From Actinomycetes bacterium (GTDB lineage Bacteria; Actinomycetota; Acidimicrobiia; Acidimicrobiales; Bog-793), in contig JAKBPI010000007.1 of NCBI GenBank assembly GCA_021829645.1, forward strand, positions 2,073 to 66,072: 64,000 nucleotides of DNA. The letters are read 5' to 3'. The notes below the pieces were generated by a model, which ran no database searches, was not told where the DNA came from, and saw only the letters and a list, made by a program, of their open reading frames with translations. This document shows, piece by piece, positions 37,897 through 56,508 of the stretch. Each line of letters begins with the position of its first letter. Positions within the stretch are counted from its first letter, which is position 1. The position numbers were made by a program, and so were the translations under genes.

Positions 37897-39123
37897 CTAC
37901 GGTCTGAGGGCAATACCCACGAAAGTAACAGAGGACATATAGACCAAAAGGAGAACCGCTACAGACAGGTAAATCCTGTAAGCTCTGGTTGAAAACTTAT
38001 AGGCAGCGACGATCAAAAGTGGGAATGCCGTCAGTAGAAGTCTGGGGTTGGGGGGAGTTTTAGCTGAGGTAAGTGCGAAAAAAGATATCCCCAGCGTCCA
38101 AACCAAAGCTGGGATGGATATGTATAGCTTGGGTCTTATGATATGGTATAAAAACACCACGAGATAAAGGGCTCCCAGCAAGGCTACCACGTAATTCAAA
38201 TTTATAGAAGAAAAGCGAAAATGACTAAAGGATACTTCGTGAGCCAGTATCTTGCCTTGATAGTAAAGCGCCAAAGGAGTGGTGGTCTCTTTCCAGCCGT
38301 AGCGTTGAGCATCATAAGAAGCAAGCGGCGTTCCGGTCCAAATCCAGAGAAAAATTCCAAAAGAGGCAATTCCACCCAGACTCAGCAGAGTGCCGATAAA
38401 AGCCTGGCTGGCTTTTCTAAGAGATTTTTCATAACGTTTCAATTCATAGAGGAAAGCTACAAATAATACCGGTGTCAACGCTAAAGCGTCCGGGGCGGTA
38501 GCGGTGGCAAAAAAAGCCAAGATACCTGCCGCAATATAGCGCCTCTTTTGAACCAAGAGAATACAGCCCATGACCAGAGGTATGGTAATACCTTCTGAGT
38601 AGACCATAGAAAATATGACAGTGCCGGGAAAGAGGTTGTAGACGACAACCGCACGACGGGCAGCTGTGTCATTAGTCCAGTTCTGCATCAATTTAAAAAG
38701 TAAAACGCTTGATACAAAGCCGCCGATAAAATTGATTGTCAGGCCAGATATCAACAAATTGCCAGCGAGCACACGCGCCAAAGCCCACATCACCATCGAA
38801 TAAAAAGGGAAAAATCCAAGCGTGGTCTGGAAATGAACAGGATGGTGTAGGTAGCCTCTGGAGGCCAAGCGTATATACCAGACGCCGTCCCAATTGGATA
38901 GTTCACTGGCAAGGTTAGAATGCTGCAAGATGGTGTTTACGTATGCCACTAATAGGATGAATATCCTGGAGAGTAAGTAGACCTTTACGATAAAGCTGTT
39001 GTCAGTAAAAAAACTCCTTGCACGGACGTATGCATCGGATATATTACGGCTCAAGGTGATTTTTTTCCCATCAACAAGGGATTTATCGTTAGTATCTTTC
39101 AAAGTGGGGCTGTCAGTCAACAT
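37897..39123 (-). CDS. GT-C fold membrane glycosyltransferase, PIG-V-like mannosyltransferase family
   Basis: It is polytopic, with about 9-10 TM segments. NWDGVWYIRLASRGY resembles the WDxxW(Y/F)xxIAxxGY motif of PIG-V-type mannosyltransferases. Confidence 0.55.
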   Translation of the reverse strand: MLTDSPTLKDTNDKSLVDGKKITLSRNISDAYVRARSFFTDNSFIVKVYLLSRIFILLVAYVNTILQHSNLASELSNWDGVWYIRLASRGYLHHPVHFQTTLGFFPFYSMVMWALARVLAGNLLISGLTINFIGGFVSSVLLFKLMQNWTNDTAARRAVVVYNLFPGTVIFSMVYSEGITIPLVMGCILLVQKRRYIAAGILAFFATATAPDALALTPVLFVAFLYELKRYEKSLRKASQAFIGTLLSLGGIASFGIFLWIWTGTPLASYDAQRYGWKETTTPLALYYQGKILAHEVSFSHFRFSSINLNYVVALLGALYLVVFLYHIIRPKLYISIPALVWTLGISFFALTSAKTPPNPRLLLTAFPLLIVAAYKFSTRAYRIYLSVAVLLLVYMSSVTFVGIALRP

Positions 39124-41134: not shown

Positions 41135-41962
41135 ATGAATAACCGCAAAACAGGCTTTTCCGCACGTAAATTACCGCTTATTTTACTTTTTACAGCTGTC
41201 ATCACCTTACTTGCCCCAACTGCTGTCTTTGCAGCTGTTAGCAATAACTCTCACAAACCAACCGTGGTAACACATAAAAAAACAACCACAAAGAAAACCA
41301 CAAAGCGTAAGAAACCGGTAACAAAAAAGAAGGCGGCTGCCCCTTCTCTCTACTCCACCTACTGCCCTACGATAGGTACTCCGATATCATCATATGCCTC
41401 TCAGTATCGCCTGCCTGGAGTAGGCAGGGTATGCTTTGACAATTTTGGCTACCCCCACTTTACAGAAGTCCTACAACCCCCCGTTGAACTCAATATAGGC
41501 CGTGGACAGAGATTGGCCCTTATACCCTATAGTGTGGTCGGCTCTCCCTCGCTCAGTCTAGCCAACTATGTAGCGGTTTTATGGGTTCCCAAAAGAGGAA
41601 ACGTCAAACTGACACAAATGCTTTTACTCGGTTTTCCCCTGAATCCTCAGGACAAAACCCTTCACCTAAAGCAACGTATTTCCGTGGGACTAGACGCATC
41701 GTATCTAAAAAACATGATACCCACCGTACCAATCACGCTTCTCAACAACTGGATTCCCGCAGATAACTCTTTTGTGGTCACAAAAAACTCAACCGTAGCC
41801 GCCTGTGCCATATCTCAGTACACCAACACGATACCTTCCTCGAATAGACCTTACGCAGAATACAAATTCATCTTCACACGCCAGGGAACACACTTCAAAA
41901 TCAGTCACATTATCGCCAAGCATATTCTCAACGGAAAGTACCTTACCTGCAATAAGCTTTGA
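41135..41962 (+). CDS. Secreted hypothetical protein with a Lys/Thr-rich linker
   Basis: GGAGGGG lies upstream of the ATG. The signal peptide ends in AVFA-AV. A KKTTTKKTTKRKKPVTKKK tract follows. The mature part has four Cys. Confidence 0.6.
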   Translation: MNNRKTGFSARKLPLILLFTAVITLLAPTAVFAAVSNNSHKPTVVTHKKTTTKKTTKRKKPVTKKKAAAPSLYSTYCPTIGTPISSYASQYRLPGVGRVCFDNFGYPHFTEVLQPPVELNIGRGQRLALIPYSVVGSPSLSLANYVAVLWVPKRGNVKLTQMLLLGFPLNPQDKTLHLKQRISVGLDASYLKNMIPTVPITLLNNWIPADNSFVVTKNSTVAACAISQYTNTIPSSNRPYAEYKFIFTRQGTHFKISHIIAKHILNGKYLTCNKL

Positions 41963-42065: not shown

Positions 42066-43832
42066 CTAGTCCTGCATCTTGGAGTCGTTCTCAAGCAATA
42101 ACAGTGACTGTTTGGTTTTCTTATCGAGTTGAGATGCCGCCACGGCTTTAAAAAATCTGAGCTTTGTCAAAGGATTGGATGAACCGGACATCTCCTTTAG
42201 TATGGCGCCTACCAATGTCGTACCCATATTAGCGTTACCCAATATAAAAGATTTCTTAGCTGATTTTTTATGCTTTTTTTTACCTATCCCGACAAGCGGA
42301 ATCGATATTTCACTTCTGAGGCGTTTATATGCCTTGGAATGCGATCTTAGATTTTGATCGCTTTTTGCACCCTTTGTAGATACGATCTCTTTGTAAAAAT
42401 TACCTACGGAAAACGGGGAAGATAAAATGTTTACAGTTACAGTCGAGGGGGGAATGACAGACGGCACTCCCCCGGACGGGGTGGTGGTAGCTTTGGGCTG
42501 CTCGCTTTCATCCATTGAATCAGGCTGATACATAACAGCTCTGATTTCATCACTTTTTGGCAATAGGTAGCCGCCGCCAGACATCGAACCAAGACTAGTG
42601 TCCTTACCACCGGAAACACCCCAAATAGCTCCCGATAACGTTCCGGAATTCCTCCTTGTCAGATGAGGCTGTGAAGGGTTTGGAACGTGAAAAACATGAT
42701 CATAGGCATCTTTTGGTGTTAACTTTAGATTATGCAGATGACTCGGCATATGACTGATGGTCGTAGGAGGTAATTGGGTAGTACTAGAAGGAGGACTGAC
42801 AACTGCCTGCCAAGTCGTGGGAACCCAACGGGGAAATGTTATGGTTTTAGTTTTCAATGTTGCTAAATCAGTCGAAGACAATTGTGTTCCCAAGGCTGGC
42901 CCGAGCACACCACTTTTTAGCAATTGATCACCTGTACGCGTGAAATCATCACCAGAATAGCTCACCGTGACTTTGTAGTTAAATGTTTGAGCACTCATGA
43001 GATTTTCCGGAATGGATTCCCAGCCACGCATGAGACCTTGATTGAAGTGTTTATTCTCCTGTGGAGCTATATTTCCGTGGACGTCGGCATTTTTACCTTC
43101 CAACAGAGTGTGCTCTACCAAGTGTCCGCCGTCATAGGTATTTCCCAAATCCTGTCTGTTGAAAACAGATCTCTCCATAGCCCCAAAATGGCCGTATGGA
43201 CCGATAACTGTGTTGTCACGGTCTTTACTATCGACTTTGGAAAGTGAAGTTGGATCGATCGAAGCTGAGACCTCACCGGCACGTTTGTATGTGTTTGTAG
43301 CGTATTCACTAGGTTGTTTAGTCCCCAAGCCGTGAAACTTATATTGCTCAAGCAGAGAGGCGGCTTTAAAGAAAGGTTCGAGGTTGTTGTGCAACACTTC
43401 TATAGGAGATTCAACTTTCTTATCAGGAGTCATCGAATTGATGACCGATTTACGCTGCAAGAGCAGATCCTGTAACGGATCTTTTGTGTCCCTAGTGTCT
43501 TTTGCAGATTGAGGAACTGAGTTGGAGGATACACTAGCGGAATTCCTTTTTCCTGTCGAACTTTTCACGGAAGCTTTTTTAGACGAAGTATTGCGATGTA
43601 AAAAATCTCTTTGCATAAACCACGGAGCGCCGTTTTCATCACCCGACAAAGACGCGGCAATGAGCTTTTGGGTATTTTTATTACCGAGAATACGCTGCAT
43701 ATTGAGAAGATGATGAGCAGGTGAAGCGGGAGTATGGAAAGAATCTACCCCGGAAGATCCGACTTGCCGAGAACTTTGCGATCCATGTCTAGGCAAAGAG
43801 ACAGCAGAATCTGATTTTTTACACTCACCCAC
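42066..43832 (-). CDS. Hypothetical protein with an LQRxxGN-type N-terminal leader and a DNA/RNA non-specific endonuclease (beta-beta-alpha-Me) motif
   Basis: Near the N-terminus it reads HLLNMQRILGNKNTQKLIAAS. Centrally it reads YDGGHLVEHTLLEGKNADVHGNIAPQENKHFNQGLMRGWE. This parallels the Serratia nuclease pattern DRGH...N(I/L)xPQxxxxNQGxWxxxE. Confidence 0.6.
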   Translation of the reverse strand: MGECKKSDSAVSLPRHGSQSSRQVGSSGVDSFHTPASPAHHLLNMQRILGNKNTQKLIAASLSGDENGAPWFMQRDFLHRNTSSKKASVKSSTGKRNSASVSSNSVPQSAKDTRDTKDPLQDLLLQRKSVINSMTPDKKVESPIEVLHNNLEPFFKAASLLEQYKFHGLGTKQPSEYATNTYKRAGEVSASIDPTSLSKVDSKDRDNTVIGPYGHFGAMERSVFNRQDLGNTYDGGHLVEHTLLEGKNADVHGNIAPQENKHFNQGLMRGWESIPENLMSAQTFNYKVTVSYSGDDFTRTGDQLLKSGVLGPALGTQLSSTDLATLKTKTITFPRWVPTTWQAVVSPPSSTTQLPPTTISHMPSHLHNLKLTPKDAYDHVFHVPNPSQPHLTRRNSGTLSGAIWGVSGGKDTSLGSMSGGGYLLPKSDEIRAVMYQPDSMDESEQPKATTTPSGGVPSVIPPSTVTVNILSSPFSVGNFYKEIVSTKGAKSDQNLRSHSKAYKRLRSEISIPLVGIGKKKHKKSAKKSFILGNANMGTTLVGAILKEMSGSSNPLTKLRFFKAVAASQLDKKTKQSLLLLENDSKMQD

Positions 43833-47146: not shown

Positions 47147-47527
47147 TTAGGCTATTTTTCCTATCATATGAAGATCTCTCAATTGAAATTCTCCTTCAAA
47201 TTTTATATCTCCAGAATCGTCAACAAATACTACAAAAGCGTTACCATTTTCATCAATTTCAATTTCAAGCTGATTCCCGCCTACGAATAACTCAATCTGC
47301 ATTCCACCGGCTACCAATGGAAAAAACTGAACCAACTCGATATAATCCTTAGCTATAGCATAAGTAATATATGCTGCTTTGCTGGCAGCTTCTCTGGATA
47401 CGGGTTTAGCATATTCGCCATCCCAACCTTCAGGGAGCTGATACAAGTTTTGAATCTTAGATTTTATCTGATCACTTTTTCCATTATCTTTTTCTTCACC
47501 ACTCAATAATGACTTTTGATGATCCAA
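47147..47527 (-). CDS. Hypothetical 126-aa protein (LPEGWDGEYAKPVS motif)
   Basis: This is an ORF-track entry with a TTG start, and it looks like a real globular sequence. It sits 41 nt upstream of the frameshifted gene on the same strand. Confidence 0.5.
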   Translation of the reverse strand: MDHQKSLLSGEEKDNGKSDQIKSKIQNLYQLPEGWDGEYAKPVSREAASKAAYITYAIAKDYIELVQFFPLVAGGMQIELFVGGNQLEIEIDENGNAFVVFVDDSGDIKFEGEFQLRDLHMIGKIA

Positions 47528-54315: not shown

Positions 54316-56508
54316 TTATTTAGATTGAACTTTTTCTCCGAACTGAACCTCGATAGCTGTCAGTAAAACAGCGACAGAGATATGTGACCTACCGATAAAA
54401 AACCGTGATGCCCTGGAAAGAATACTTTCGGCGACCGGAATCGACGGCGAGTTTTGCAACTCTTCTGCCCTCCTCCCTTGCCACGCATATATGTCGTGTT
54501 CTTGCAGAAGGCGTACGACAGCTTCGACGCACGTATTATGTTCAATTGCCAGATAGTAGGCAAGCGCAGCTTTTTGTCCTGGACTCATTTTTAGGTTTTG
54601 GACATCATCTGAAATATCTTGCTCACTCTCTATGGCATACCATGCTCTAACCCCTATTGCATTGACATCTTCTTTAAGTACGGCAGTTTCGGCGGCTTTA
54701 CTAATACCATTAAGCACATTGTAAAAAGTTGACCCATTTTCGGAAGCTGTCGCAATCGCCTCATCGGCAGCCGTTCCACTCCGAAGAGCCAGCAGATACG
54801 GGGTAAGTATTCCGCTTGTTACGATATCTGCACCGATCAACAACGCCCCCGCCGCCGCCGTCTTTCCTGCAGACAACCAATTCTCAATACTGTCAAGAAA
54901 AGCTGCTGTCGGCGCTGCGATCGCCATATTCATATTTGCCAGCGGTACCACCCATTCGGCTATATCGGTAGGGTCAGAAACTGACGGTGCGGGACTATTG
55001 GCCAAAAACCACGAAGTCATGGAGGCCGTAGCATTTTCCCGCCCGCTGTTATCTCTTACCGCTCCGTACATAAGACCGGTAAGTTCGTTCGGACTAAGAG
55101 GCCCTGGGTATGCGGCATAGTTTGCATATCCCGGCCAGCTCTCTGCCAAAGCCGTATCGCTCATCTGCTCGAATAAGCCGTCTGAACCAAACAAACCCTG
55201 ATCCGCCTGTGACCAAGATTTTATTTCCGACTCACTCAACCCGCTTAAAAAATCAATAACGGCATACGGATGCGGGATCAGGTCGGTAAGCAAGCCTTTT
55301 TCGGCACCGGATACTACACGATAAGAATACAATGCTCCGGCAAGATTGGTTGTCGCATCGTTTGTCTCGTATGCATTGACAACAATTCGATCCAACAAAG
55401 CGCTTTGTATGTCACCGCCGATCATGGCGGCAAGTACAGCCACGCTGGACGCGTCCAGCCCATTTATAAACCCAAGTGCTGCATCAGGATTTGCAGCACA
55501 GGACCGCAAATCGGTAAGCATCGATTTTGTCAAAATAGACTTTGCAAGCGGAGATTTGATCACCGATGTACCGTTCCTAACCACGGTCAAAACTGTGCCG
55601 GGAGAAGGAACTTCACTATAGGCTTGTTTAAGTATGGCGGTATCGTCATTAAAATTCAAAGCTACCTGTTGCCTACATTGCGTGACAAGAGGCGTTGATG
55701 TAATACTTGCGGCGACCTTGGTTCGATATGTCGCTGGTCTCGATCCCGGTTCAGAAACTTCAAAAATAAGGTTATCACCCGGTTCAAGCTCATGTCCCCC
55801 ACTTCCGTTGTCATAACCCCCTGCGAAACCGGATATGACAATATAGTCACTTCCCCAACTTCGCACACGGATCATGATATTACCACTGACAGAAGAAGCG
55901 TTCCAGCCATGGCTGTCAATCATGACGAGTTGGTGTTGAACATCCTTGCTATCAGAAGATTCATTTAAACAATGACCACTAATGGTGATTGACTGAGTTT
56001 TTAATGGTTTAACTATACCTACTGATTCAATACTTGGAGTACATGTCGATGAAGAGTTTGCAGTGGCATGTGAAACATAACAAGACCAGCTATAGGCATT
56101 GTTGATATTACTCACAACAGCCACAGCGTTATCATGAGGATACGTCCACTGACAAGCGGCATTCATATTGGTAGGTTTCGAACCGCATACCCATTTTTTT
56201 GCAGCGTCAGGTGCATTGACGGGACTTAGAAGCGTGGATGACTCACCAAGTGACGAACAATACGCCTGGAGATTCATACCGCCGAGATCCGTCCCTGGTT
56301 TCGGCGGCGGCGAAATAGCTCCTGCTATAGGCGAAACTGTCTGGATACCAACCAATAACAAGACCGTTAACATAATAAAAGAACAGAGAAAACGTATCGA
56401 AATACAATATCTGTGATTATACCCAGAGGGAAGAAGATGATCAGAGGAATCACCTGTCGTTGATTGACCTATTCTGGGTTTGGTTTTCATAGCTACCCAT
56501 TCCCTCAA
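54316..56508 (-). CDS. Large secreted or membrane-anchored hypothetical protein (730 aa)
   Basis: It has an N-terminal signal/anchor (FIMLTVLLLVGIQTVSPIAGA). A Cys-containing domain follows (NLQAYC...WVCG...AACQWTY...AYSWSCY), then a beta-rich middle and an Ala-rich helical C-terminal half. The start may be the internal MKTKPRIG. Confidence 0.6.
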   Translation of the reverse strand: MREWVAMKTKPRIGQSTTGDSSDHLLPSGYNHRYCISIRFLCSFIMLTVLLLVGIQTVSPIAGAISPPPKPGTDLGGMNLQAYCSSLGESSTLLSPVNAPDAAKKWVCGSKPTNMNAACQWTYPHDNAVAVVSNINNAYSWSCYVSHATANSSSTCTPSIESVGIVKPLKTQSITISGHCLNESSDSKDVQHQLVMIDSHGWNASSVSGNIMIRVRSWGSDYIVISGFAGGYDNGSGGHELEPGDNLIFEVSEPGSRPATYRTKVAASITSTPLVTQCRQQVALNFNDDTAILKQAYSEVPSPGTVLTVVRNGTSVIKSPLAKSILTKSMLTDLRSCAANPDAALGFINGLDASSVAVLAAMIGGDIQSALLDRIVVNAYETNDATTNLAGALYSYRVVSGAEKGLLTDLIPHPYAVIDFLSGLSESEIKSWSQADQGLFGSDGLFEQMSDTALAESWPGYANYAAYPGPLSPNELTGLMYGAVRDNSGRENATASMTSWFLANSPAPSVSDPTDIAEWVVPLANMNMAIAAPTAAFLDSIENWLSAGKTAAAGALLIGADIVTSGILTPYLLALRSGTAADEAIATASENGSTFYNVLNGISKAAETAVLKEDVNAIGVRAWYAIESEQDISDDVQNLKMSPGQKAALAYYLAIEHNTCVEAVVRLLQEHDIYAWQGRRAEELQNSPSIPVAESILSRASRFFIGRSHISVAVLLTAIEVQFGEKVQSK

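What the first reader, a model, noticed from the sequence alone, without database searches (positions are those of the whole stretch)
42066..43832. Orphan 588-aa protein combining an LQRxxGN-type leader with a Serratia-nuclease-like active-site motif
Residues near the N-terminus read HLLNMQRILGNKNTQKLIAAS. This matches the L.LQR.xGN.A...L leader that I recall at the start of many DUF4157-type or contractile-injection-system-associated and polymorphic toxin proteins.

The centre reads GGHLVEHTLLEGKNADVHGNIAPQENKHFNQGLMRGWE. It lines up residue for residue with the DRGH...N-I-x-PQ....NQG.W...E catalytic core of DNA/RNA non-specific endonucleases. There is no signal peptide and no recognisable DUF4157 metallopeptidase core.

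The roughly 270-aa C-terminal part is unassigned. No same-strand immunity gene follows it. The next gene (41135..41962) is convergent and secreted. A nuclease effector with no obvious immunity or secretion partner in a small low-GC actinobacterial genome deserves a closer look.
Basis: partly seen in the sequence, partly recalled or inferred. Interest (0 to 1): 0.65.

Follow-up and report, generated by a model that had tools for sequence, protein, structure and literature searches.

The report
Injection-system-type nuclease toxin missing one domain
This gene encodes a DNA/RNA-cutting toxin from a rare but already annotated family that other bacteria load into phage-tail-like injection machines; this copy has lost one optional domain and sits alone among housekeeping genes, so it is a modest variant, not an orphan.

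Summary
The 588-aa ORF at 42066..43832(-) is real, intact and under purifying selection.

- The centre is a His-Me finger nuclease. Pfam PF13930 scores 37 bits against a cut-off of 27. A ββα-metal core is predicted, and Foldseek hits only EndoG/Serratia-type nucleases.
- The N-terminus carries a diverged LQRxxGN leader (E = 0.002 with a profile built from unrelated DUF4157 proteins).

- It is not an orphan. About 33 full-length family clusters exist. Most carry a DUF4157 ("eCIS core") domain between leader and nuclease.
- Three homologues lie inside contractile-injection-system (CIS) loci (Sorangium, Minicystis, Anaerolineae).
- The C-terminal ~290 aa are conserved across the whole family. They match no known sequence family or fold.

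**This copy**
- The window's clade has lost the DUF4157 core but keeps the leader and the ΦQR marks that flank that domain elsewhere.
- The gene is vertically inherited in an uncultured actinobacterial lineage (Acidimicrobiales are the nearest named relatives).
- No CIS or immunity gene is visible within 64 kb.

**Verdict:** new member of a known kind (CIS cargo nucleases such as Tme and Pne1). Whether this genome has a CIS could not be tested.

The parts
42066..43832 (-). Whole gene: 588-aa leader + nuclease + family-specific C-terminal module (stop codon at 42066-42068)
   Evidence: ORF list. Full-length homologues at 31-65 % identity. Purifying selection.
43725..43832 (-). Residues 1-36: disordered, fast-evolving N-terminal tail
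   Evidence: pLDDT about 30. 5/24 residues identical to P0002. The start position is supported by the ATG of orthologue L004.
43647..43724 (-). Residues 37-62: LQRxxGN-type leader (LLNMQRILGNKNTQKLIAAS), predicted helical hairpin; contains the first ΦQR mark (M45-Q-R)
   Evidence: Extended leader HMM from 103 non-nuclease DUF4157 proteins: 12.8 bits, E = 0.002 (Z = 362), 0/5000 shuffles. 16/26 residues identical to P0002, against 21-25 % in the flanks. Helices 38-49 and 51-62, pLDDT about 76.
43464..43646 (-). Residues 63-123: disordered linker that replaces the DUF4157 metallopeptidase core; keeps the upstream boundary mark FMQRDFLH (M73-Q-R)
   Evidence: Alignment gap where relatives have the HExxH domain. 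pLDDT 30-44. The ΦQR spacing of 28 residues matches the leader-to-domain-start spacing of about 30 in 120 DUF4157 proteins. In P0002 the leader profile aligns through this second ΦQR.
42540..43463 (-). Residues 124-431: nuclease module, starting at the invariant LQRKS (third ΦQR, L125-Q-R-K128-S129). Pfam PF13930 match at residues 176-298 (nt 42939-43307). A conserved alpha/beta extension runs to about residue 431
   Evidence: Pfam 37.1 bits against a cut-off of 27. pLDDT 72-97 for residues 131-380, 64-89 further on. Foldseek hits EndoG and Serratia nuclease, probability 0.99. Distant relatives match up to profile position about 450.
42996..43136 (-). Residues 233-279: predicted ββα-metal catalytic core, YDGGH237...GN254IAPQ...FN264QGLMRGWE272
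   Evidence: Translation. DSSP strand-strand-helix pattern. D234, G235, G236, H237, N254, P257, Q258, N264, Q265, R269, W271 and E272 are invariant in 36 sequences. The match to Serratia H89/N119/E127 is from my own recollection of that sequence.
42447..42539 (-). Residues 432-462: conserved extended linear motif AVMYQPDSMDESEQPKATTTPSGGVPSVIPP, function unknown
   Evidence: M434, Q436, P437, Q445 and P457 are invariant or nearly so. Lowest pN of the gene, 0.09. Low pLDDT of 53-67, meaning not a folded domain.
42069..42446 (-). Residues 463-588: family-specific helical C-terminal module ending in LLLLENDxKMQ. Includes a clade-specific poly-lysine loop at residues 513-526 (nt 42255-42296)
   Evidence: Six helices, pLDDT about 80-87. 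Found only in the core family or fragments of it among 1.84 billion representatives. No PDB or BFVD fold match. The basic loop is an insertion in the window clade and in P0010/P0011.

Best explanation
The gene encodes a cargo-type toxin of the DUF4157 ('eCIS core') effector class, with three parts.

1. **N-terminal loading region.** It is disordered and carries an LQRxxGN helical leader.
2. **Nuclease.** A Mg-dependent His-Me finger (Serratia/EndoG-like, PF13930) non-specific nuclease. H237 is the likely general base, and N264 and E272 hold the metal.
3. **C-terminal module.** About 160 residues found only in this family, of unknown role.

The ancestor had a DUF4157 metallopeptidase domain between leader and nuclease. 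This actinobacterial clade deleted its core but kept the leader and the flanking ΦQR marks.

**Shown here:** family membership, an intact active site, the loss of DUF4157, CIS linkage of homologues, and vertical inheritance.

**Inferred:** the protein is recognised through its N-terminal region and packed into a contractile injection system encoded elsewhere in the genome. It would then degrade nucleic acid in a target cell or, as proposed for Streptomyces CIS, in the producer's own dying cells. The producer would be protected by timing or sequestration, not by an adjacent immunity protein.
For: **Nuclease**
- PF13930 scores 37.1 bits against a cut-off of 27.
- The catalytic residues are invariant in 36 homologues.
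- A ββα topology is predicted with pLDDT 72-85.
- Foldseek hits only EndoG, Serratia nuclease, EXOG and NucA, with probability up to 0.99.
- pN is 0.15 against pS 0.77.

**Family**
- Full-length homologues in Streptomyces, Solirubrobacteraceae, Undibacterium, Sorangium, Minicystis, Anaerolineae and Heteroscytonema mostly carry PF13699 plus PF13930.
- 24 of 59 more distant nuclease relatives also carry PF13699.

**CIS linkage**
- P0033 lies inside a Minicystis CIS locus with CIS_TMP, Pvc16_N, two sheath genes, gp19-type tube genes and CIS_tube.
- P0031 follows CIS_TMP in Sorangium.
- P0034 lies beside an AAA ATPase, another eCIS_core gene, XisH/XisI and CIS_TMP in an Anaerolineae genome.
- The same block of a 663-aa gene, a 525-aa gene and CIS_TMP precedes the nuclease in all three.

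**Leader**
- 100 of 120 non-nuclease DUF4157 proteins have the motif about 45 residues from the N-terminus.
- The profile hits the window at E = 0.002 and clade relatives at 23-33 bits.
- The leader is an island of conservation inside a diverged N-terminal region.

**Literature**
- In AlgoCIS the disordered N-terminal domain is required for cargo loading and DUF4157 is dispensable (bioRxiv 10.64898/2026.05.27.728243).
- DUF4157 marks eCIS toxins, and many of them lack immunity genes (PMC8213781; PMC11297309).
- Characterised CIS nuclease effectors exist: Tme (DUF4157 plus an EndA-like nuclease, PMC11126660) and Pne1 (PF13930, bioRxiv 10.1101/543298).
Against: - No CIS gene was found in the 64-kb window. 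None was found within 10 kb of any member of the window's own clade.
- Whether the genome has a CIS at all is unknown.
- Most family loci (11 of 14 genomic ones) are not next to a CIS.
- The window's leader is the most eroded in the family: 5.6 bits with the short profile, against 19-39 bits in relatives.
- The N-terminal region as a whole evolves almost neutrally (pN/pS about 0.8; dN/dS about 0.6).
- Structural similarity to solved nucleases is modest (TM 0.39, E 6e-3). No solved structure is detectable by sequence.
- Nuclease activity, loading and the target were not tested.
Confidence: 0.6

Rival explanations
1. Domesticated ex-cargo. The lineage has no CIS. The nuclease is a former effector now used without injection, for example as an intracellular DNA-degrading enzyme in regulated cell death, stress or nutrient scavenging, or released on lysis. 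The leader would be a decaying relic or would have a new role.
For: - No CIS gene lies in 64 kb or near any clade member.
- DUF4157 has been lost.
- The leader is eroded in the window and P0002, at 5.6-6.2 bits against 19-27 bits in P0003-P0007.
- The gene has a stable syntenic chromosomal position among housekeeping genes.
- There is no immunity gene.
Against: - The leader helices are still far better conserved than their flanks: 62 % against 21-25 % identity to P0002.
- An unregulated cytoplasmic non-specific nuclease with an intact active site and no inhibitor would be hard to tolerate.
- Stand-alone family members also occur in genomes that do have a CIS. Minicystis has both P0032 (stand-alone) and P0033 (in the CIS locus).
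Confidence: 0.25
2. Polymorphic toxin of another export route, such as a type VII secretion LXG/WXG substrate like EsaD or YeeF, or an Rhs/T6SS toxin. These also use PF13930 nucleases.
For: PF13930 is the toxin domain of EsaD/EssD, YeeF and Dickeya RhsA (PMC9990079). The host is a Gram-positive-type actinobacterium.
Against: - There is no LXG, WXG100, Rhs or PAAR domain.
- The nuclease is central, not C-terminal.
- No DUF600-type immunity neighbour exists.
- Full-length homologues occur in Proteobacteria, Myxococcota, Chloroflexota and Cyanobacteria, and are fused to the eCIS core domain.
Confidence: 0.05
3. Anti-phage defence nuclease, or a decaying or non-functional gene.
For: It is a stand-alone nuclease with no partner. 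A nearby 126-aa ORF has a weak PADLOC hit.
Against: - The nuclease has no PADLOC or PHROG match.
- Strong purifying selection acts on the nuclease and the C-terminal module, and the frame is intact in several species.
- The PADLOC-hit ORF is 3 kb away, beyond the GH3 gene, and is not syntenic in relatives.
Confidence: 0.05

Closest known systems
DUF4157/eCIS-core nuclease proteins annotated in genomes, e.g. Undibacterium macrobrachii and U. baiyunense (P0008, P0009) and Streptomyces spp. (P0012-P0020)
   Same: They are homologous over the leader (Streptomyces and Solirubrobacteraceae members), the whole nuclease, the MYQP...ATTTP motif and the C-terminal helical module. Identity is 35-42 % over 80-96 % of the query.
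   Different: They carry a ~100-130-aa HExxH DUF4157 domain between leader and nuclease. The window's clade lacks it. None has been characterised experimentally as far as I found.
Tme of Streptomyces davawensis (BN159_7576; PMC11126660)
   Same: It is an actinobacterial CIS effector with an N-terminal DUF4157-type region and a C-terminal His-Me (EndA-like) nuclease. Its catalytic His is required for toxicity, and it degrades DNA.
   Different: Tme is 2247 aa, with tape-measure-like coiled coils and transmembrane helices. It is encoded inside the CIS cluster and keeps DUF4157. No sequence comparison with the window protein was possible here.
Pne1 of Pseudoalteromonas luteoviolacea MACs (bioRxiv 10.1101/543298)
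   Same: It is a CIS-delivered effector of about 500 aa with the same Pfam nuclease family (PF13930) and no DUF4157. It has a disordered N-terminal region and a basic NLS-like segment.
   Different: It comes from a different lineage and has a different leader. It is encoded next to the MAC cluster and is shown to kill eukaryotic cells. No homology outside the nuclease core is known.
AlgoCIS cargo Cgo1/Cgo2 (bioRxiv 10.64898/2026.05.27.728243; PMC8894135)
   Same: The architecture is a disordered N-terminal loading sequence, an optional DUF4157 and a C-terminal effector. Engineered constructs lacking DUF4157 still load. The window protein looks like a natural equivalent.
   Different: The N-terminal sequences are system-specific and unrelated, and the effector domains differ.
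EsaD/EssD (S. aureus), YeeF (B. subtilis), RhsA (Dickeya): PF13930 toxins of T7SS or Rhs systems (PMC9990079)
   Same: They share the same Pfam nuclease family used as an interbacterial toxin.
   Different: Their nuclease is C-terminal and follows LXG, WXG or Rhs delivery domains. They have dedicated adjacent immunity proteins. Neither feature is present here.

Membership tests
Endonuclea_NS_2 (PF13930) / His-Me finger non-specific nucleases | Profile HMM score above the curated gathering cut-off | tested here: met
   37.1 bits against 27, residues 176-298. 52 of 59 distant relatives also match.
Endonuclea_NS_2 (PF13930) / His-Me finger non-specific nucleases | Catalytic His in D-x-G-H, the metal-binding Asn and the downstream Glu are present and conserved | tested here: met
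   D234, G235, G236, H237, N254, N264, Q265 and E272 are invariant in 36 homologues. The sequence was verified. The mapping onto Serratia H89/N119/E127 is from my own knowledge.
Endonuclea_NS_2 (PF13930) / His-Me finger non-specific nucleases | ββα-metal fold | tested here: met
   The AF2 model has strands at 233-237 and 255-259 and a helix at 260-279, with pLDDT 72-85. All Foldseek top hits are EndoG, Serratia nuclease, EXOG or NucA, with probability up to 0.99. The scores are modest (E 6e-3, TM 0.39).
Endonuclea_NS_2 (PF13930) / His-Me finger non-specific nucleases | Mg-dependent DNase/RNase activity | not testable with these tools
   Needs purified protein with H237A and N264A controls.
DUF4157 / eCIS_core (PF13699) | Profile HMM match and the HExxH zinc motif | tested here: not met
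   There is no PF13699 hit at E<=1 and no HExxH. The alignment shows a gap where relatives have the domain. Only the flanking ΦQR marks remain. The protein is not a member of PF13699, although it is homologous to members elsewhere along its length.
CIS cargo / eCIS-associated toxin (EAT) | Disordered N-terminal loading region | tested here: met
   pLDDT is below 50 for residues 1-36 and 68-127, flanking a short helical leader. This matches the architecture described for CIS cargo.
CIS cargo / eCIS-associated toxin (EAT) | Leader shared with DUF4157-type cargo of the same system type | tested here: met
   The extended leader profile from 103 non-nuclease DUF4157 proteins gives E = 0.002 (Z = 362), and 0 of 5000 shuffles reach it. 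The short profile alone is not significant (E = 0.24). Clade relatives score 19-27 bits with the short profile and 23-33 bits with the extended profile.
CIS cargo / eCIS-associated toxin (EAT) | Encoded within about ten genes of a CIS operon or next to a DUF4157 gene | tested here: not met
   No CIS or DUF4157 gene is in the window or near clade members. The feature is met for homologues P0031, P0033 and P0034.
CIS cargo / eCIS-associated toxin (EAT) | A CIS is present in the same genome, and the protein is found in particles | not testable with these tools
T7SS LXG/WXG or Rhs polymorphic toxins (EsaD, YeeF, RhsA) | N-terminal LXG, WXG100, Rhs or PAAR delivery domain, a C-terminal toxin and an adjacent immunity gene | tested here: not met
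   There are no such Pfam domains. The nuclease is central. The neighbours are a GH3 gene and a convergent exported protein with no immunity-family hit.
Secreted Serratia/EndA-type nucleases | N-terminal Sec signal peptide or membrane anchor | tested here: not met
   Residues 1-36 are hydrophilic and predicted to be disordered. This is by inspection only; no signal-peptide predictor was run.

The most novel reading that the evidence does not exclude
The window's clade may be a CIS-independent descendant of an injection-system toxin. It would be an intact non-specific nuclease with no immunity partner, kept for a long time in a lineage that has no CIS.

In that reading, the retained LQRxxGN leader and the three ΦQR marks form a recognition or processing code. 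ΦQR would be a cleavage or docking site used in trans by a separate DUF4157 peptidase or by another machine. The fold-less MYQP...ATTTP motif and the unique C-terminal helical module would keep the nuclease silent until it is released.

This would give DUF4157 and the ΦQR marks a defined function, which the literature still lacks.
Probability: 0.15. Interest if true: 0.6.

Novelty: new member of a known kind. Interest (0 to 1): 0.35.

Why it matters
**Annotation.** The result turns a supposed orphan into an interpretable gene. It also corrects the truncated public gene call.

**Biology.**
- The family is a natural experiment on the DUF4157 'eCIS core' domain, whose role is still unknown. The domain has been lost at least four times while the leader and the nuclease were kept. 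This agrees with recent engineering data that DUF4157 is dispensable for cargo loading.
- The sharp placement of ΦQR motifs at the leader and at both edges of DUF4157 is a concrete, testable lead for how these cargos are recognised or processed. There are 285 occurrences against 26 expected.
- If the lineage turns out to lack a CIS, the gene would be an example of effector domestication.

None of this changes the basic picture of CIS toxins.

Tried and rejected
- **Sequence searches against solved structures.** The single protein and the family profile both gave 0 hits. Residue-level mapping onto a solved nuclease could therefore not be computed.
- **NCBIfam.** Nothing was found for the nuclease.
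- **PADLOC and PHROGs.** Nothing was found for the nuclease, so defence-system or phage membership was rejected.
- **C-terminal half (residues 300-588).** It was modelled separately and searched against PDB and BFVD. The best hits were E = 1.4 and E = 0.05, both weak jelly-roll fragments of rotavirus VP6 type, treated as noise.
- **Short 30-residue leader profile.** It ranked the ORF first of 362 but was not significant (E = 0.24). It was replaced by a longer profile.
- **CIS structural genes.** phmmer searches with Minicystis and Anaerolineae proteins found nothing in the window or in 21 other loci. Sensitivity for divergent actinobacterial CIS proteins is limited.
- **Metagenome scan for more clade members.** It gave only 4 loci and no CIS context.
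- **Promoter, terminator and hairpin scans around the gene.** Nothing was above chance.
- **Convergent 275-aa gene as an immunity candidate.** Rejected: it has an export signal and no family, and it is absent beside P0004.
- **Poly-lysine loop as a family-wide nuclear localisation signal.** Not supported: it is an insertion specific to the window clade and P0010/P0011. Other members have basic clusters elsewhere or none at that site.
Full report
**1.

The ORF 42066..43832(-) encodes 588 aa from a GTG start.

The identical protein in public data is called from M45 (544 aa, P0001). The orthologue in MAG WH2.bin4 starts with ATG at the position of the window's GTG (MGFCKKS against VGECKKS). More distant relatives have 40-50 residues before the motif and no Met inside it. 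The long form is therefore the better call.

Against syntenic orthologues the nuclease has pN 0.15 while pS is saturated at 0.77. The N-terminal region is much more relaxed, with pN 0.46 against pS 0.59. The gene is functional.

**2. The nuclease is real**

- Pfam gives PF13930 Endonuclea_NS_2 at 37.1 bits against a cut-off of 27, for residues 176-298.
- In a 36-sequence family alignment D234, G235, G236, H237, N254, P257, Q258, N264, Q265, R269, W271 and E272 are invariant.
- The AlphaFold2 model (pLDDT 73 overall, above 90 for parts of the nuclease) places these residues on a strand-strand-helix unit: strands 233-237 and 255-259, helix 260-279.
- The top Foldseek PDB hits are all EndoG, Serratia nuclease, EXOG or Anabaena NucA, followed by the nuclease-like domains of autotaxin and NPP3. 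Probability reaches 0.99, but scores are modest (E 6e-3, TM 0.39).
- No solved structure is detectable by sequence, even with a family profile.
- From my own recollection of the Serratia sequence, DRGH89, N119 in LNQG and E127 correspond to DGGH237, N264 in FNQG and E272.

**3. It is not an orphan**

The word-index search found 37 homologues. The exhaustive search of 1.84 billion representatives found 100, about 33 of them full length. The family is rare but spread across several phyla:

- Actinomycetota MAGs
- Streptomyces
- Solirubrobacteraceae
- Undibacterium
- Sorangium and Minicystis
- Anaerolineae
- the cyanobacterium Heteroscytonema

NCBI already names members 'eCIS core domain-containing protein' or 'DNA/RNA non-specific endonuclease'. 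Most carry PF13699 (DUF4157) between the leader and the nuclease. Among 59 more distant nuclease relatives, 52 have PF13930 and 24 have PF13699.

**4. Link to contractile injection systems (CIS)**

| Homologue | Organism | Context |
|---|---|---|
| P0033 | Minicystis rosea | Between two CIS_TMP genes and Pvc16_N, two sheath genes, two gp19-type tube genes and CIS_tube/LysM |
| P0031 | Sorangium So ce134 | Directly after CIS_TMP |
| P0034 | Anaerolineae chromosome | Beside an AAA ATPase, another eCIS_core gene, XisH/XisI and CIS_TMP |

The same block of a 663-aa gene, a 525-aa gene and CIS_TMP precedes the nuclease in all three.

The other loci have no CIS gene within 10 kb. These are five Streptomyces loci, two Undibacterium loci, the Solirubrobacteraceae and Heteroscytonema loci, the second Minicystis copy and every member of the window's clade. 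The window itself has none in 64 kb.

The window holds actinobacterial housekeeping genes: ruvCAB, yajC-secDF, gltBD, thrS-HIT-pgsA-htrB-pimA and an mshC-like gene. ThrS is closest to unnamed MAG proteins (74-82 %). Among named records it is closest to Acidimicrobiales and Actinomycetota MAGs, at about 65 %.

**5. The leader**

In 120 DUF4157 proteins without a nuclease, 100 have [LQRxxGNxAV] upstream of HExxH. The GN is a median of 44.5 residues from the N-terminus and about 102 residues before HExxH.

| Profile | Target | Result |
|---|---|---|
| 30-residue leader profile | Window ORF | Ranked first of 362 window ORFs; 5.6 bits, E = 0.24 |
| 30-residue leader profile | DUF4157-less relatives P0003, P0004, P0005, P0007, P0018, P0022 | 19-27 bits |
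| 30-residue leader profile | DUF4157-bearing family members that carry the leader | 25.9-39 bits |
| Extended profile (leader to the VQRS boundary, 103 proteins) | Window ORF | 12.8 bits, E = 0.002 at Z = 362; 0 of 5000 shuffles reach it |

The leader is predicted as a helical hairpin (residues 38-62) between disordered stretches. It is an island of conservation: 16 of 26 residues are identical to P0002, against 5 of 24 and 15 of 60 in the flanks.

The Undibacterium, Sorangium and Minicystis members lack this leader. This fits the report that CIS loading sequences are system-specific.

**6. DUF4157 was lost, not merely absent**

The alignment shows a clean gap where relatives have the HExxH domain. 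ΦQR motifs are strongly over-represented in DUF4157 proteins: 285 observed against 26 expected in the 120 non-nuclease proteins, and 68 against 15 in the nuclease family.

They sit at three fixed places relative to HExxH:

- about 110 residues before (the leader);
- about 80 residues before (the domain start, 105 of 120 proteins);
- 50-70 residues after (the domain end).

The window protein has three ΦQR motifs against 0.2 expected:

- M45-QR, in the leader;
- M73-QR (FMQRDFLH, compare HVQRSAVH), 28 residues further on, which matches the canonical leader-to-domain-start spacing;
- L125-QRKS, the invariant start of the nuclease module.

Both edge marks of DUF4157 therefore survive around a 50-residue disordered linker.

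On a neighbour-joining tree of the shared region, DUF4157-less members form at least four separate groups next to DUF4157-bearing sisters. The window's clade is one such group, and its sister P0010/P0011 has both the domain and the leader. Some basal DUF4157-less sequences may be truncated gene calls.

**7. The C-terminal half**

- **Residues 301-431** belong with the nuclease. Distant relatives align up to profile position about 450.
- **Residues 432-462** are a strongly conserved, non-globular motif, MYQPxxxDxxxQPxATTTPxGxxPxVxP. It has the lowest pN of the gene, and its pLDDT is 53-67.
- **Residues 463-588** form a helical module found only in the core family. It has no match in PDB or BFVD. 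Its poly-lysine loop (residues 513-526) is an insertion restricted to the window clade and P0010/P0011.

The function of this half is unknown. Autoinhibition, target-cell trafficking and nucleic-acid binding are all open.

**8. Genomic status**

The window is colinear with MAG WH2.bin4.

| Gene | Identity to WH2.bin4 |
|---|---|
| GH3 | 70 % |
| Nuclease | 62 % |
| Convergent 275-aa gene | 76 % |
| MptA/B-family gene | 65 % |
| 408-aa gene | 73 % |
| GGDEF/EAL gene | 83 % |
| MFS gene | 81 % |

The gene is therefore vertically inherited, not a recent island. There is no candidate immunity gene, and no conserved neighbour exists across family loci. The CIS literature notes that many such toxins lack immunity genes. 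It suggests protection by late expression, by sequestration, or through DUF4157 itself (PMC8213781).

**9. Comparison and verdict**

The closest characterised systems are:

- Tme of S. davawensis, which combines DUF4157 with an EndA-like nuclease and is CIS-loaded;
- Pne1 of the MACs, a PF13930 effector without DUF4157;
- the AlgoCIS cargo rules, where the N-terminal domain is needed for loading and DUF4157 is dispensable.

The protein meets the definition of PF13930. It fails that of PF13699. It meets the intrinsic features of CIS cargo but not the genomic-context criterion. I file it as a new member of a known kind.

The delivery step is inferred, not shown. The main rival is a domesticated, CIS-independent nuclease, and it is not excluded because the rest of the genome could not be examined.

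Noticed in passing
window 43608-43616, 43452-43460, 43692-43700; proteins P0038-P0157: ΦQR ([LIVMF]-Q-R) motifs are about 11-fold over-represented in DUF4157 proteins (285 observed against 26 expected). They sit at three fixed positions: in the leader, at the start of DUF4157, and 50-70 residues after HExxH. I found no description of this in the papers I read. They could be processing or docking sites.
   Followed up: partly
window 47147-47527 (-): This 126-aa ORF has no Pfam or PHROG hit but matches the C-terminal ~100 residues of the PADLOC candidate defence protein PDC-M32A (E = 1.2e-6). It is not syntenic in the related MAG.
   Followed up: no
window 41135-41962 (+): The convergent 275-aa protein has a signal-like N-terminus and a Lys/Thr-rich linker (TTTKKTTKRKKPVTKKK). 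It has no family in Pfam, NCBIfam, PADLOC or PHROGs, but is conserved at 76 % in the related MAG.
   Followed up: partly
window 43700 (M45); public protein P0001: The public gene call of the identical protein starts at M45 (544 aa). This removes the disordered N-terminal tail and puts MQRILGN at the very N-terminus. Orthologues support the 588-aa form.
   Followed up: yes
L025 10001-11629 and L026 10001-11782 (Minicystis rosea CP016211): One genome carries two paralogues. P0033 has DUF4157 and lies inside the CIS locus. P0032 lacks the HExxH core and stands alone 6.5 Mb away. Stand-alone DUF4157-less copies can therefore coexist with a CIS.
   Followed up: partly
window 54316-56508 (-) and 37897-39123 (-): These large ORFs (730 aa and 408 aa, the latter a multi-pass membrane protein) have no Pfam match. 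The 730-aa ORF gave a weak chance-level hit to the leader profile (4.8 bits).
   Followed up: no
window 42255-42296 (-), residues 513-526: The poly-lysine loop GIGKKKHKKSAKK is inserted between C-terminal helices only in the window clade and P0010/P0011. Streptomyces members instead have KKRKRP about 25 residues earlier. It resembles a nuclear localisation signal, as reported for Pne1, but it could equally bind nucleic acid.
   Followed up: partly
L019 14522-15991 and L027 14187-15749: In Undibacterium and in the Anaerolineae genome a second, unrelated DUF4157 (eCIS_core) protein is encoded 2-4 kb from the nuclease gene. This suggests small effector islands away from or beside the CIS.
   Followed up: no
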